Shown here: piece by piece, positions 1,314-50,049 of the stretch
Layout of the letters: the number at the start of each line of letters is the position of its first letter
Position numbering within the stretch: position 1 is the first letter of the stretch
DNA from: a bacterium
GTDB taxonomy: Bacteria > UBP15 > UBA6099 > JAJRTR01
Length of the DNA stretch: 57,205 nt
Direction of reading: 5' to 3'
Assembly (NCBI GenBank): GCA_024278215.1
Contig: JAJRTR010000165.1
Span: forward strand, 1 to 57,205
The notes under the pieces: model-generated
Told to the model about the DNA's origin: nothing
Seen by the model: the letters and a program-made list of their open reading frames with translations, nothing else
Database searches by the model: none
Program-made: the position numbers and the translations under genes

Positions 1314-1332
1314 GTCGTATGTTGTTTCCAGA

Positions 1333-1409
1333 CCGCTTTCCTCTCGCCGGCATTATCCGTATCAGGTTCGAGGGGTCTGTTCTCAGCCGTTTTCCGGCAC
1401 CCCCAGCGG
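1333..1409 (-). ncRNA. TPP riboswitch
   Basis: Minus strand reads CCGCTGGGGGTGCCGG...CGGCTGAGA...ACCC.TCGAACCTGATACGGATAATGCCGGCGAGAGGAAAGCGG, with the GCTGAGA, ACCTGAT and GATAATGCC.GCG core, upstream of thi genes. Confidence 0.95.
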
Positions 1410-1458
1410 ATAATCAACAGTATATCATCCGGTGATTGCTTTTTCAAATTACATATCC

Positions 1459-1636
1459 GAGCCAATTGTAAAATTCTGATTCTGCTGCGGTCGGCTGCTA
1501 TTGTCCATAGCTGCGTTGTCGGCGCGAAATCGTCCTCGACGTACTCTGCAAGTACGCCTGCGAGGATTTTGCACTTCCGCCTTGCTCTGAACAATTTCGC
1601 TCGACCTCGCTACGAACATAATTTTGCAATTGGCTC
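1459..1636 (+). mobile_element. MITE family A, copy 1 (178 bp)
   Basis: TIRs GAGCCAATTGtAAAATT / AATTTTGCAATTGGCTC; flanks ATCC/ATCT (3 of 4 matching). Confidence 0.9.
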
Positions 1637-6510: not shown

Positions 6511-7482
6511 TCAATCCAGGTTTATGCGGTATTTTATAAAGTATGCCTGCTTATCCTGCGACTCGAAATACGTCCGCATGATCAGTTCGGCGAGCAGGCC
6601 CATCATAATAAACTGGAAACCCAGGATAGCAAGGAAAACAGCGAGCAGTATCTTCGGATTATTATGCACCGGAAAGCCGAGAATATAACGGTCGTAAAGA
6701 GAGAAGGCTCCGAAAAACACTCCCAGCAGTCCAAGCAATCCACCGACAGAACCGAAAAGGTAGGCCGGTTTTGCAATGAAACTGCCCATGAATTTTACAG
6801 TGAAGAGGTCGAGAATAACCTTGAAGATTCTCGTGAGGCCGTAATTGGATTTCCCTGCCGTCCTCGGCCTGTGGTTCACCGGTATTTCTATTATTTCGGC
6901 CCCTACCTGCTGGGCATAAAGCGGAATGAAACGGTGCATCTCCCCATACAGCCGCACATTTCCGAGCACTTCCCTTCGGTACGCCTTCAGCGAACAGCCA
7001 TAATCGTGCAGATGAAGTCCGCCGATAACCGATATCATCCAGTTTGCGAAAAAAGAAGGCAGTTTCTTGCTCAGAAACGGGTCCTTCCTGTCCTTTCGCC
7101 AACCGCTCACCACGTCATAGCCTTCGTCTATCAGGTCGAGCAACCGCTTGATATCCGCCGGGTCGTTCTGGAGATCGGTGTCGATAGTAATCAGCACAGC
7201 GCCGGTCGCATGATTGATCGCCGCCGACACAGCCGCCGTCTGTCCGAAATTACGCGTGAATGAAATTACCTTAACCCTTTCATCTTTTTCAGCCAGGCGC
7301 GTCAGTATCTCACGGCTGCTGTCCCTGCTGCCGTCGTCGACATAAACAATCTCGAAAGAACGGTCGAGTTTTTCCAGTTCCTCAAACAGTTCGGCATGGA
7401 AACGCTCCAGGTTCTCAGCCTCGTTGTAAACAGGGCCGAGTATCGAAATATCCAACTGTTTTTTCCCTTCGGAACTTTCCAT
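6511..7482 (-). CDS. GT2 polyprenol-phosphate glycosyltransferase (ArnC/DPM1-like)
   Basis: PVYNEAEN, VDDGSRD, RNFGQTAA, IDTDLQNDP, GEMHRFIP, two C-terminal TM helices. Confidence 0.9.
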   Translation of the reverse strand: MESSEGKKQLDISILGPVYNEAENLERFHAELFEELEKLDRSFEIVYVDDGSRDSSREILTRLAEKDERVKVISFTRNFGQTAAVSAAINHATGAVLITIDTDLQNDPADIKRLLDLIDEGYDVVSGWRKDRKDPFLSKKLPSFFANWMISVIGGLHLHDYGCSLKAYRREVLGNVRLYGEMHRFIPLYAQQVGAEIIEIPVNHRPRTAGKSNYGLTRIFKVILDLFTVKFMGSFIAKPAYLFGSVGGLLGLLGVFFGAFSLYDRYILGFPVHNNPKILLAVFLAILGFQFIMMGLLAELIMRTYFESQDKQAYFIKYRINLD

Positions 7483-7661
7483 AAGTGTCCAATCCGGCAG
7501 CCGACAAAAAAAACACATTATCATTAGATTATGTCGAGTACAGTATATATCACAACCGCGTTCGTCTACAATCGACGCGTAGAAAAAAGGAAATAAATAA
7601 CAGGACGACAGACATCCGGATTATTGACACACATTATCGCAAAATATAATATTGTGTAAAG

Positions 7662-7839
7662 AAGCCAATTGCAAAATTCTGATTCTGCTGCGGTCGGCTA
7701 CTATTGTCCATAGCGGCGTTGTCGGCGTGAAATCGTCCTCGACATACTCTACAAGTACGTCTGCGAGGATTTTACACCTACGCCTTGCTCTGAACAATTC
7801 CGCTCGACCTCGCTACGAACATAATTTTGCAATTGGCTC
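7662..7839 (+). mobile_element. MITE family A, copy 2 (178 bp)
   Basis: Same TIRs as copy 1; 4-bp direct repeat AAAG on both sides. Confidence 0.9.
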
Positions 7840-7923
7840 AAAGTAAAGAATCTGAACAACGCAACCCGGCACCGTATATTGTATGCACGAAAAAAAAGTC
7901 CCGAACTGTCGAGGTTATTACTC

Positions 7924-9090
7924 ATGCAGAATGCTAAAGAAATACAAACCGCAAGCCGTTTCCTGCGGAGGGCTCTGCTGCCTTGTTTTGTAGCCGCGCT
8001 GCTCCTCTTCAATGCCGCGAATGCACGGCCCAGACCCCCGAAAGGCAGAAAACCGCCGCCCGGAAACTCGACGAACACATCGCAACACTCGAGCCGGTCG
8101 AGCCGGAACAACAACCCTTTCCTGCTGTCGGAAGACGGTCATATAGCAGACGTCATCGGATTTCAGAATATAGGTCGCTCCGACACAACATTCGATGCCG
8201 TTTTCTATCTACCGACCTCTTACGCCGACCTCCAGACTGTCACAGATCAACAGGTCTACTTCTATCCGGCGAATGCCGACACCGCCGAGATACTTACCGA
8301 TACGCTGGGAGCGTATATGCTTCATCTGAAATACACGGGACTGCAACCCCGGTCACGTATAGTTGTCTATTACACGGCAAACATCCCCGAGGAGCAACCC
8401 CGGCGCCCGGTGACAGGCTGGAAAAACATTCCGGTACCCGAAAGCGCCGCCGCATACCCTGTGTCCGCCGCCATGTTCCTGAAGTCCGGCAGAGACCTTG
8501 AAACACATACCCCACGGGTGCGGAAATACACAAAAAAAATCATACCCGCGAAAGACGGCCTGACATACGGCGAGGCAGCTTGCGCCGCTGTGAAGGATAT
8601 CGATTCTTTCCCATTCGGCAACGACAACAACAGCAGCCGCAACACACGTTTCCCCCCGGACTACATGCGAAACCCCGCAGAGGTTCTCGCCTCCCACAAA
8701 TGCGTATGTGTCGAGTGCGCTCGACTGGCATGTGCGGTTCTTCGCAACACCAACATCCCCTGTCGCACAGCTACAGGGTTCTTCGGCGGAAAACCCTGGG
8801 ACCACACATGGATACAAATCTTTGTCCGGGACATCGGCTGGGTCGACGTCGATCCCCAGCAGGGATACTGTCCTGACGGCCTGCTCAGTGAGGAGTACAA
8901 AGGCAAGTACGACCTTTACGAATTGCTCGATCCGGACCAGAACGAGACCTATGAGATCCAATATACAACCGATCCCCCCGTTCCCATGCGCATCATGTCT
9001 CAAAATATTAACGATTTCGGCGATTTCATCGAGCAGGGTACCACCCGCAAAAAGGAATCCGTCACCTGGGGCGAAATAACCGTTGAATGA
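7924..9090 (+). CDS. Secreted transglutaminase-like (Cys-His-Asp) protein
   Basis: Signal peptide ending ANA, Pro-rich linker, CVECARLACAVLR..NIPCR..TG, HTWIQ, GWVDVDP. Confidence 0.8.
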   Translation: MQNAKEIQTASRFLRRALLPCFVAALLLFNAANARPRPPKGRKPPPGNSTNTSQHSSRSSRNNNPFLLSEDGHIADVIGFQNIGRSDTTFDAVFYLPTSYADLQTVTDQQVYFYPANADTAEILTDTLGAYMLHLKYTGLQPRSRIVVYYTANIPEEQPRRPVTGWKNIPVPESAAAYPVSAAMFLKSGRDLETHTPRVRKYTKKIIPAKDGLTYGEAACAAVKDIDSFPFGNDNNSSRNTRFPPDYMRNPAEVLASHKCVCVECARLACAVLRNTNIPCRTATGFFGGKPWDHTWIQIFVRDIGWVDVDPQQGYCPDGLLSEEYKGKYDLYELLDPDQNETYEIQYTTDPPVPMRIMSQNINDFGDFIEQGTTRKKESVTWGEITVE

Positions 9091-9228: not shown

Positions 9229-9302
9229 GCGTCCGTAGCTCAACTGGATAGAGCATCTGACTTCGGATCAGAGGGTTGCGGGTTCGAATCCTGCCGGGCG
9301 TA
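9229..9302 (+). tRNA. tRNA-Arg(UCG), CCA not encoded
   Basis: GCGTCCG acceptor stem, D arm TAGCTCAACTGGATAGAGC, anticodon arm TCTGA-CTTCGGA-TCAGA, T loop GGTTCGAATCC. Confidence 0.97.
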
Positions 9303-20194: not shown

Positions 20195-20344
20195 GAGCCA
20201 ATGCAAAATTATGTTCGTAGCGAGGTCAAACGAAATTTTTCAGAAGCAAGGCGGAGGTGCAAAATCCCCGCAGGCGTACTCGCCGAGTACGTTGAGGATG
20301 ATTTTGTGCCGACAACGCAGCTATGGACAATTGCAGCCGACCGC
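20195..20344 (-). mobile_element. MITE family A, copy 3 (reverse orientation, one end truncated)
   Basis: GAGCCAATGCAAAATTATGTTCG...GCAGCCGACCGC is the reverse complement of family A. Confidence 0.85.
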
Positions 20345-22392: not shown

Positions 22393-22451
22393 GAGCCGAT
22401 TGCAAAATTCCGATTCGGCTGCGGTCGGCTGCGGTCGGTGGCAATCGGCTT
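22393..22451 (+). mobile_element. MITE family A, copy 4 (internally deleted, 59 bp)
   Basis: GAGCCGATTGCAAAATT...GCAATCGGCTT; direct repeat GAAG on both sides. Confidence 0.75.
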
Positions 22452-28419: not shown

Positions 28420-28598
28420 GAGCCAATTGCAAAATTCTGATTCGGCTACGGTCGGCTGCAATTGTCAACAGCTGCGTTGTCGGCACAAAATCATCCTCGA
28501 CGTACTCTACAAGTACGCCTGCGGGGATTTTGCGCCTCCGCCTTGCTTCCGACCGATTTAGCTCGATCTCGCTTCGAACATAATTTTGCAACGGGCTC
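28420..28598 (+). mobile_element. MITE family A, copy 5
   Basis: Family A TIRs; direct repeat ACCC on both sides. Confidence 0.9.
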
Positions 28599-29633: not shown

Positions 29634-29811
29634 GAGCCAATTGCAAAATTCTGATTCGGCGGCGGTCGGCTGCAATTGTCCATTGCTGCGTTGTCGACAG
29701 AAAATCATCCTCAACGTACTCGGCGAGTACGCCTGCGGGGATTTTGCACCTACGCCTTGCTTCTGAACAATTTCGTTCGACCTCGCTTCGAACATAATTT
29801 TGCAATTGGCC
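29634..29811 (+). mobile_element. MITE family A, copy 6
   Basis: Family A TIRs; direct repeat TACT on both sides. Confidence 0.9.
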
Positions 29812-29860
29812 TACTAAATTACTTTGTTGATTTACAATTTATATTATGTTATTTTATAGC

Positions 29861-46546: not shown

Positions 46547-46724
46547 GAGCCAAGTGAAAAATTCTGATTCTGCTGCGGTCGGCTGCTATTGTCCATAGCT
46601 GTGTTGTCGGCATAAAATCGTCCTCGACATACTCTACAAGTACGCCTGCGAGGATTTTACACCTCCGCCTTGCTATGAACAATTTCGCTCGACCTCGTTT
46701 CGAACATAATTTTGCAATTGGCTC
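46547..46724 (+). mobile_element. MITE family A, copy 7 (178 bp)
   Basis: Family A TIRs; direct repeat ATTA on both sides. Confidence 0.9.
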
Positions 46725-49992: not shown

Positions 49993-50049
49993 GAGGCGAT
50001 TGAACAATTTCGTTCGGTCTCGCCTCGAACATAATTTTGCAATTGACTC
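49993..50049 (+). mobile_element. MITE family A, copy 8 (internally deleted, 57 bp)
   Basis: GAGGCGATTG fused to the right half, ending AATTTTGCAATTGACTC; direct repeat TATT on both sides. Confidence 0.75.

What the first reader, a model, noticed from the sequence alone, without database searches (positions are those of the whole stretch)
7662..7839. MITE A folds as one long hairpin with compensatory changes, a possible structured RNA or ssDNA
Seen in sequence: pairing continues inward from the TIRs (GCGGTCGG with TCGACCTCGC, TTGTCCATAGC with GCT(C/A)TGAACAA, AAAT...CCTC with G(A/G)GGATTTT) to an apical GTAC-loop-GTAC. One stem pair is C-G in copies 1, 3 and 5 (for example gCgaaat/attttGc) and T-A in copies 2 and 7 (for example gTgaaat/attttAc). 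The CGAGG to CGGGG change keeps a G-U pair. The mini-copy at 22393 has a double change in its TIRs (AGCCgATTGC/GCAATcGGCT). Copy 2 lies just downstream of a TTGACA...TATAAT-like promoter (7624-7650), so it may sit in the transglutaminase gene leader. Inference: the internal structure is under selection beyond what transposase end recognition needs, which could reflect RNA processing (for example RNase III), an mRNA-stability role or a folded mobilisation intermediate.
Basis: partly seen in the sequence, partly recalled or inferred. Interest (0 to 1): 0.72.

Follow-up and report, generated by a model that had tools for sequence, protein, structure and literature searches.

The report
Hairpin-forming miniature transposon (MITE) family
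The 178-base stretch is one of about 260 copies of a small non-coding jumping element that folds into one long hairpin, an ordinary kind of bacterial repeat whose fold seems to matter for its own spread and not for the neighbouring genes.

Summary
Window 7662-7839 is a foldback MITE with 17-bp inverted ends (GAGCCAATTGCAAAATT) and a 4-bp target duplication (AAAG). The 4.5-Mb draft genome holds about 259 near-full copies plus many fragments and 36-66-bp minis.

The hairpin is real: 68 pairs, and no shuffle of 200 folded as well on either strand, as RNA or DNA.

Covariation is modest:
- The quoted C-G/T-A pair is CA:80, CG:74, TA:34 in 203 copies.
- RNAalifold does not recover the hairpin.
- The number of covarying pairs is no higher than in slid controls.

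Divergence between subfamilies does preserve the fold. Inserted copies decay neutrally: 6.2 substitutions per site in ends, stems and loops alike.

My reading is that selection acts on the element's own proliferation, probably on folded DNA, and not on an RNA function at each locus. I found no partner transposase, no copy outside this genome and no RNA data.

This scan had already described the same family on other pieces of this genome. It is a new member of a known kind, and interest is low to moderate.

The parts
7662..7839 (+). MITE copy 2 (the finding): 178 bp. The L arm comes first on the + strand. The first base is A where the consensus has G.
   Evidence: Hairpin folds.
7658..7661 (.). 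Left copy of the 4-bp target-site duplication, AAAG.
   Evidence: Read. The right copy lies at 7840-7843.
7840..7843 (.). Right copy of the target-site duplication, AAAG.
   Evidence: Genome-wide, 122 of 196 scorable copies have an exact 4-bp duplication.
7624..7652 (+). Sigma-70-like promoter match, TTGACA-17-TAATAT (10 of 12). It points through the MITE towards the ORF at 7879.
   Evidence: This is a consensus match only, and expression was not tested.
7879..9090 (+). Downstream ORF with a transglutaminase-like core domain. The MITE would lie in its leader if the promoter is real.
   Evidence: PF01841, E 5e-13.
1459..1636 (+). MITE copy, subfamily cl5. It lies 45 nt from the TPP riboswitch at 1321-1414(-).
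20195..20344 (-). MITE copy lacking about 28 nt of its L end.
22393..22451 (+). 59-bp mini derivative with the G6/C end variant, an internal 10-nt duplication and a GAAG target duplication.
28420..28598 (+). MITE copy, subfamily cl6.
29634..29812 (+). MITE copy, subfamily cl6.
46547..46724 (+). MITE copy, subfamily cl5.
50001..50049 (+). Solo R-arm fragment: the last 49 nt of the element.

Best explanation
This is a non-autonomous DNA transposon, a foldback MITE. It was spread by a DDE-type transposase supplied in trans, which cuts at the 17-bp inverted ends and makes 4-bp duplications of A+T-rich targets. That part is shown by the anatomy.

The two arms pair over the whole 178 bp. The pairing has been kept in the lineages that went on to multiply, while copies that have landed decay neutrally. 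I infer that the fold serves the element's own proliferation. Most likely it acts as folded DNA, either a single-strand hairpin at the replication fork or an extruded cruciform that brings the two ends of a very short element together. The role of folded DNA is inference only.

When a copy is transcribed, as copy 2 may be in the transglutaminase-gene leader, the RNA will also form a 68-pair hairpin. That hairpin may be cut by RNase III or may alter mRNA stability, but I read this as a by-product and not the selected function.
For: MITE anatomy:
- There are 458 BLAST matches, 259 of them at least 150 nt long.
- There are 757 end matches, and 201 end pairs are spaced 160-179 bp.
- An exact 4-bp duplication flanks 122 of 196 scorable copies, and the targets are A+T-rich.
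- Only 2 of 203 copies lie inside long ORFs.

Neutral decay after insertion:
- Terminal-branch substitutions per site are 6.26 in the ends, 6.22 in the stems and 6.24 in unpaired positions.
- Private variants per site are 1.65, 1.51 and 1.60 for the same three classes.

Constraint in multiplying lineages (internal branches):
- Substitutions per site are 0.79 in the ends, 1.34 in the stems and 1.86 in unpaired positions. Ends against unpaired gives p 0.0003, and stems against unpaired gives p 0.048.
- There are 5 same-branch double changes, counted as 10 column events against 1.3+-1.4 in the control, with 0 of 300 controls as high.
- Transitions to transversions are 104:33 in stems against 35:43 in unpaired positions (p 7e-6).

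Subfamily consensuses keep the fold:
- cl1, with 31 substitutions: -74.2/-78.5 kcal/mol against -50.4+-4.8/-54.4+-5.7, with 0 of 100 random placements as stable.
- cl6, with 12 substitutions: P 0.02 and 0.00 on the two strands.

Individual cl1 copies still fold at -64 to -75 kcal/mol.
Against: - No transposase gene with these ends was found, so the mobilising enzyme and its needs are unknown.
- Minis of 36-66 bp with target duplications move without the long hairpin.
- The two large subfamilies (117 and 68 copies) differ at 12 sites with no double change.
- Three of the 5 internal double changes sit on one branch.
- Covarying pairs number 16 against 13.5, with slid controls at 12-20.
- RNAalifold does not recover the hairpin.
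- The tree-free version of the stem test is not significant: 14 of 102 stem sites against 10 of 42 unpaired sites carry a variant seen in at least 20 copies (p 0.15).
- The tree rests on 178 columns, midpoint rooting and parsimony.
- Repeats in a draft metagenome-assembled genome may be chimeric.
- A weak orientation bias points towards some RNA-level effect: between same-direction genes, 53 copies against 33 would be transcribed as the better-folding strand (p 0.04).
Confidence: 0.55

Rival explanations
1. No selection on the fold. On this reading the element was born as a near-palindrome, from a foldback or from symmetric IS ends. The few compensatory-looking changes come from mutational mechanisms such as template switching within the hairpin during replication, or are simply inherited by subfamilies.
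For: - The number of covarying pairs does not exceed controls: 16 against 13.5, with 99 of 500 shuffles as high and slid controls at 12-20.
- Three of the 5 internal double changes are on one branch.
- In cl1 the changes at 31-33 and 146-147 are adjacent, as a single multi-base event would give.
- The main subfamilies show no double change.
- Restoring events are not enriched overall: 49 against 43.3+-3.9 on internal branches, and 86 against 113+-13 on terminal branches.
- Template switching as a source of hairpin-preserving changes is described in PMC8794818. I saw only its title and the start of its abstract, in the listing.
Against: - A mutational mechanism should act on every copy. Terminal branches show no excess of restoring or double changes.
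- The subfamily consensuses of cl1 and cl6 are 11 to 24 kcal/mol more stable than random placement of the same substitutions.
- The transition excess is confined to stems on internal branches.
Confidence: 0.22
2. The fold is selected as RNA. On this reading the transcribed copies act as RNase III sites, mRNA stabilisers or insulators for neighbouring genes, as shown for Correia and ERIC elements.
For: - The - strand RNA folds better than the + strand: -81.5 against -71.9 for this copy, and -80.8 against -65.0 for the consensus.
- Between same-direction genes, 53 copies against 33 would be transcribed as that strand (p 0.04).
- Copy 2 lies behind a promoter-like site.
- The genome has an RNase III gene.
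- RNase III binding and cleavage of Correia elements is stated in the abstract of PMC2649163 (listing).
Against: - Inserted copies show no constraint on stems.
- Wobble states are split between the strands. The consensus has 6 C.A-type pairs, which would be G.U on the - strand. Four frequent variants are G.T, which would be G.U on the + strand.
- Pair breaks on internal branches favour G.T 36:18, the opposite strand to the one the consensus favours.
- There was no Rfam match even at E up to 1.
- RNAalifold gives no support.
- Copies are spread over tandem, divergent and convergent spacers roughly in proportion to spacer length.
Confidence: 0.13
3. The arm symmetry reflects repeated protein-binding sites along both arms of double-stranded DNA, for the transposase or a host factor, and not base pairing.
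For: Complementary double changes keep the two arms identical as duplex DNA just as well as they keep pairing. The ends are the most constrained part.
Against: Subfamily-level stem variants are mostly transitions that give G.T or A.C states: 12 of 15 variants seen in at least 20 copies, and 104:33 on internal branches. Those states break duplex symmetry but are mild for a fold. Minis need only about 11-12 bp of each end.
Confidence: 0.1

Closest known systems
Correia / NEMIS elements of Neisseria (bacterial MITEs)
   Same: Both are small (about 100-160 bp), non-coding, high-copy and intergenic, with inverted ends. The transcript folds into a long hairpin. Correia elements can carry promoters and bind RNase III (PMC2649163, abstract in the listing; PMC3184786, passages).
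   Different: There is no sequence relation. This element has a 4-bp A+T-rich duplication, whereas Correia has TA. I recall the TA duplication for Correia; no call gave it. RNase III cutting, IHF binding and promoter activity are all untested here.
bcr1 of the Bacillus cereus group and other foldback MITEs reviewed by Delihas 2011 (PMC3184786)
   Same: The review calls long RNA stem-loops a classic feature of MITEs. It reports base-pair compensatory changes that maintain the bcr1 structure, with stability lost in some copies (passages read).
   Different: bcr1 is about 155 bp with 5-bp direct repeats and is known to be transcribed. Here transcription is unknown. I also separate constraint in multiplying lineages from neutral decay of inserted copies.
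REPINs (REP doublets moved by RAYT tyrosine transposases), Bertels and Rainey 2011 (PMC3116915)
   Same: REPINs are hairpin-forming miniature mobile DNA. [quoted passage not shown]
   Different: From recall, REPINs have no inverted-end plus target-duplication anatomy and use an HUH enzyme on single-stranded DNA. This element has 17-bp inverted ends and 4-bp duplications, the mark of a DDE transposase.
MITEs with IS1182-type ends, as proposed for this same family in the earlier scan note e1-4553389
   Same: The 4-bp duplication matches. IS1182-like remnants (DDE_Tnp_1_6) exist in this genome. A full 560-aa IS1182-like element with a 3-4-bp duplication exists in a genome of the same order.
   Different: That full element ends in TTGATTCCGGCGCAAAAACCC. 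This is the end of a different, low-copy MITE in this genome, not GAGCCAATTGCAAAATT. Membership is therefore not shown here.

Membership tests
Bacterial MITE (non-autonomous DDE-type transposon) | Terminal inverted repeats | tested here: met
   The 17-bp ends GAGCCAATTGCAAAATT are perfect in the consensus. There are 757 matches with up to 3 mismatches.
Bacterial MITE (non-autonomous DDE-type transposon) | Target-site duplication of fixed length | tested here: met
   An exact 4-bp duplication flanks 122 of 196 scorable copies, with 7 of five bp, 5 of three and 57 with no exact match. Copy 2 has AAAG.
Bacterial MITE (non-autonomous DDE-type transposon) | Small size, no transposase gene, many dispersed copies | tested here: met
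   The element is 178 bp. There are 259 matches of at least 150 nt in 4.55 Mb. None of the longer end-to-end intervals holds a transposase.
Bacterial MITE (non-autonomous DDE-type transposon) | An autonomous element with the same ends | tested here: inconclusive
   None was found in this genome, which is 95% complete in 207 contigs. None was found in 40 relatives, in genome contigs, in metagenome contigs or in plasmids.
Bacterial MITE (non-autonomous DDE-type transposon) | Insertion polymorphism (empty sites) as proof of movement | not testable with these tools
   No second strain or near relative carrying the element was found.
IS1182-family-derived MITE | Ends match those of an IS1182-family insertion sequence | tested here: inconclusive
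   The only full IS1182-like element retrieved (L061, with DUF772, DDE_Tnp_1 and DDE_Tnp_1_6) has different ends. ISfinder records could not be consulted.
IS1182-family-derived MITE | 4-bp duplication | tested here: met
REPIN / REP (RAYT-mobilised) | No inverted-end plus duplication anatomy; REP heads; HUH transposase. These features are recalled. | tested here: not met
   The element has 17-bp inverted ends and 4-bp duplications. RAYT genes were not searched for.
Described structured RNA family (Rfam 15) | Match to a covariance model | tested here: not met
   The element gave no match at gathering scores in the window, and none at E up to 1 in 7560-7940.
Correia / NEMIS | Sequence relation, RNase III cleavage and IHF site | not tested
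   No Correia sequence was compared. The resemblance is functional and anatomical only.

The most novel reading that the evidence does not exclude
Base pairing along the whole element is needed for mobilisation by a DDE transposase. On this reading the element moves, or is recognised, as folded DNA: a single-strand hairpin or a cruciform that puts both ends side by side. Reliance on a fold is so far established only for HUH-type elements (IS200/IS605, REPINs). It would explain why foldback MITEs with well-kept hairpins recur in many phyla.
Probability: 0.2. Interest if true: 0.65.

Novelty: new member of a known kind. Interest (0 to 1): 0.3.

Why it matters
The element makes up roughly 1-2% of a genome from a phylum with only 13 genomes in the held set. 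It breaks the assembly at many places: 96 end matches lie within 200 nt of contig ends. It also sits in many gene leaders and trailers, so it matters for annotation.

The contrast between neutral decay of landed copies and constraint in multiplying lineages is a clean, testable pointer. It suggests that hairpins of bacterial MITEs can be kept for the element's own sake and not for the host's. In kind, though, this is an ordinary foldback MITE, and the scan had already described the family.

Tried and rejected
RNA evidence:
- No RNA holder was listed for window 6900-8900, so no reads could be laid.

Search for copies elsewhere:
- An exact 24-mer gave 0 matches in genome contigs.
- BLAST of 40 relatives gave 0 of 40.
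- A degenerate 23-mer in metagenome contigs gave 1 locus. It lies inside an 881-aa ORF with no partner end, so I treat it as chance.
- The plasmid collection gave no match by DNA or by the transposase remnant.
- The scan's own index gave nothing by sequence.

Search for the partner transposase:
- The intervals between distant end pairs hold ordinary genes.
- PF05598 gave 0 matches.
- PF13751 and NF033551 gave only C-terminal remnants.
- Three DDE_Tnp_1 genes have other ends.
- A word-based search for longer relatives of the 71-aa remnant found none.
- The remnant at G000:C188 lies 8 bp from a MITE end, but that MITE has its own CATA duplication, so it simply inserted there.

Consensus folding:
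- RNAalifold on 203 copies and on 45 copies gave no long hairpin.

Computation:
- A first attempt at a full MFE null timed out. It was replaced by pair counting and a smaller MFE run.

Not done:
- R-scape is not installed and was not run.

Rejected readings:
- A terminator: the stem is not followed by a T run.
- A REPIN: the element has inverted ends and duplications.
- A known RNA family: Rfam gave no match.

Full report
**What is there**

Window 7662-7839 is a 178-bp repeat. Its ends are inverted copies of GAGCCAATTGCAAAATT; in this copy the first G is an A. It is flanked by the direct repeat AAAG at 7658-7661 and 7840-7843.

The window holds five full copies, at 1459, 7662, 28420, 29634 and 46547. 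It also holds a 5'-cut copy at 20195-20344(-), a solo right arm at 50001-50049 and a 59-bp mini at 22393-22451.

In the whole draft genome (4.55 Mb, 207 contigs, 95% complete), BLAST gave 458 matches, 259 of them at least 150 nt long. I extracted 203 full copies with flanks, 96 on one strand and 107 on the other. A scan for the 17-mer end with up to 3 mismatches gave 757 matches. Of these, 201 end pairs were spaced 160-179 bp, and 96 matches lay within 200 nt of a contig end.

Of 196 copies whose ends could be placed, 122 have an exact 4-bp duplication, 7 have five bp and 5 have three. The duplicated words are A+T-rich in a genome of 51% G+C.

With crude longest-ORF gene calls (3,407 ORFs covering 86.5% of the genome), only 2 of 203 copies lie inside long ORFs. 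The copies are spread over tandem, divergent and convergent spacers roughly as spacer length predicts. This is the anatomy of a MITE.

**The fold**

The copy folds as one long hairpin on either strand:
- As RNA: -71.9 kcal/mol (z -9.2) and -81.5 (z -8.2).
- As DNA: -38.3 (z -6.7) and -44.8 (z -8.1).
- No shuffle of 200 folded as well in any of the four folds.

The family consensus has 68 pairs, 62 Watson-Crick and 6 C.A/A.C. The arms are only about 67% alike as inverted repeats. The hairpin is therefore imperfect, and its L and R arms are distinct in all copies: 270 L-type and 243 R-type inward sequences, with 238 others that are solo, cut or mini.

All of them are in the sequence.
- The pair quoted as C-G or T-A is columns 67-113. 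In the window it is C-G at 1459, 20195 and 28420, and T-A at 7662 and 46547.
- Across 203 copies the same pair reads CA:80, CG:74, TA:34. The two paired forms are therefore each one transition from an abundant mismatched form, and not a clean double change.
- CGAGG/CGGGG is pair 75-105, TA:106 and TG:89.
- The G6/C end variant of the mini is shared by many 36-66-bp minis. Sixteen of 64 candidates have exact 4-bp duplications, although several of the 49-bp candidates are really parts of full copies.
- The promoter-like site is TTGACA-17-TAATAT at 7624-7652.
- The ORF behind the MITE has a transglutaminase core domain.

**Is there covariation?**

The signal is modest, and it depends on how it is counted.

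- I shuffled the 3' partners among columns with the same consensus base, which keeps the relatedness of the copies. Double-change cells were then 58 against 26+-10 (p 0.03). Pairs with such a cell were 21 against 14.7+-2.9 (p 0.02).
- The session's own counter was run on 45 sequences: the 5 window copies plus 40 of the other 198, namely all 18 that fall outside the two main clusters and 11 random picks from each main cluster. It gave 40 double-change cells against 23.1+-3.6 (0 of 500 shuffles as high; slid controls 19-28). Pairs were only 16 against 13.5 (99 of 500 as high; slid controls 12-20).
- RNAalifold did not recover the hairpin on 203 or on 45 sequences.
- The two large subfamilies (117 and 68 copies) differ at 12 sites with no double change.

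**Where the constraint sits**

I built a FastTree tree of the 203 copies, rooted it at the midpoint and placed 1,351 substitutions by parsimony. Of these, 1,109 fell on terminal branches.

| Branch type | Ends (subs/site) | Stems | Unpaired |
|---|---|---|---|
| Terminal | 6.26 | 6.22 | 6.24 |
| Internal | 0.79 | 1.34 | 1.86 |

On terminal branches there is no constraint at all, not even on the ends. Private variants say the same: 1.65, 1.51 and 1.60 per site. On internal branches, ends against unpaired gives p 0.0003 and stems against unpaired gives p 0.048.

Other internal-branch results point the same way:
- Internal branches carry 5 pair events in which both sides change on the same branch and pairing is kept. 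That is 10 column events against 1.3+-1.4 in the control, with 0 of 300 controls as high. Terminal branches show no such excess, 18 against 14.8+-5.1.
- Three of those 5 events are on the branch to one small old subfamily, cl1.
- Transitions to transversions on internal branches are 104:33 in stems and 35:43 in unpaired positions (p 7e-6). On terminal branches they are 407:227 and 135:127.

A tree-free check agrees in direction. Sites with a variant in at least 20 copies number 1 of 34 in the ends, 14 of 102 in the stems and 10 of 42 in unpaired positions. It is significant only for the ends (p 0.018; stems p 0.15).

I also placed the same substitutions at random positions with the same consensus base and compared fold energies:
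- cl1 (31 substitutions) folds at -74.2/-78.5 kcal/mol against -50.4+-4.8/-54.4+-5.7. None of 100 random placements was as stable.
- cl6 (12 substitutions) gave P 0.02 and 0.00 on the two strands.
- Of the two clusters with only two copies, one fell within the random range (P 0.84 and 0.77) and one was marginal (P 0.07).
- Single cl1 copies still fold at -64 to -75 kcal/mol.

**Reading**

Landed copies decay as neutral DNA. Lineages that multiplied kept the ends most strictly, then the stems, and tolerated mainly transitions in stems.

That pattern fits selection on the element's own spread. It does not fit a host function of each copy as RNA.

A fold that matters for spread is most simply a DNA fold, either a single-strand hairpin or a cruciform that brings the two ends of a very short element together. 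This last step is inference.

Minis with only about 11-12 bp of each end and with target duplications show that the long stem is not strictly required.

**RNA-level hints**

The hints are weak and mixed.
- The - strand RNA folds better.
- Between same-direction genes, 53 copies against 33 would be transcribed as that strand (p 0.04, on crude gene calls).
- The genome has an RNase III gene.
- Against this, wobble-type states are split between the strands.
- Rfam has no match.
- No RNA run could be listed.

**Partner transposase**

None was found.
- The IS1182-like remnants in this genome are C-terminal pieces only.
- Their full-length 560-aa relative, in a genome of the same order, ends in TTGATTCCGGCGCAAAAACCC. 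That is the end of a different, low-copy MITE here.
- Three other DDE transposase genes have other ends.
- The earlier scan note that files this family under IS1182 is therefore neither confirmed nor refuted. Only the 4-bp duplication agrees.

**Distribution**

The element was not found outside this genome:
- 0 of 40 relatives.
- 0 matches in genome contigs.
- 1 chance match in metagenome contigs.
- 0 matches in plasmids.

The phylum has only 13 genomes in the held set.

**Known context**

- Long RNA stem-loops are called a classic feature of bacterial MITEs, and compensatory changes are reported for bcr1 (PMC3184786, passages read).
- Compensatory changes are also noted for REPIN hairpins (PMC3116915, passages read).
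- Correia elements bind RNase III (PMC2649163, abstract in the listing).
- Template switching can create hairpin-preserving changes (PMC8794818, title and start of abstract only).

The finding is therefore a new member of a known kind.

**Caveats**

- The tree is short-sequence, midpoint-rooted and parsimony-based.
- The copies are related, so cell counts overstate the evidence.
- The gene calls are crude.
- Repeats in a metagenome-assembled genome can be chimeric.
- R-scape was not run.

Noticed in passing
window 1321-1414 (-) and 1459-1636: A TPP riboswitch (68.8 bits) lies 45 nt from MITE copy 1. The MITE sits just upstream of the riboswitch's 5' end, where the promoter of that thiamine-regulated unit should be.
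   Followed up: no
L012 about 1783-1888 (G000:C62); G000:C22:44652-44785: A second, low-copy foldback MITE of about 100-134 bp has ends TTGATTCCGGCGCAAAAAG (5 + 8 end matches). These ends match those of a full IS1182-like element in a genome of the same order (L061 1312-3126). One copy sits inside a cut copy of the main MITE.
   Followed up: partly
L011 1480-1695 (G000:C188), L012 1500-1676 (G000:C62), G000:C9:10155-10319: There are three C-terminal remnants of an IS1182-like transposase (DDE_Tnp_1_6). No full copy is present in this assembly.
   Followed up: partly
window 7662-7711 and all copies: The - strand of the element is open from an ATG at element position 50 (and from position 136) out through the L end. 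Naive ORF calling therefore extends neighbouring genes 42-136 nt into the MITE. It did so in many of the 55 overlaps listed.
   Followed up: partly
element positions 36-48 of the L arm (e.g. window 28455-28467): The L arm of subfamily cl6 holds an inner inverted look-alike of the end (GCTGCAATTGTCC). The 49-bp minis look like elements that use this inner site, turned into GCAATYGGCTC, as their right end.
   Followed up: partly
window 9229-9302: A tRNA gene (65.9 bits) lies just after the transglutaminase-like ORF.
   Followed up: no
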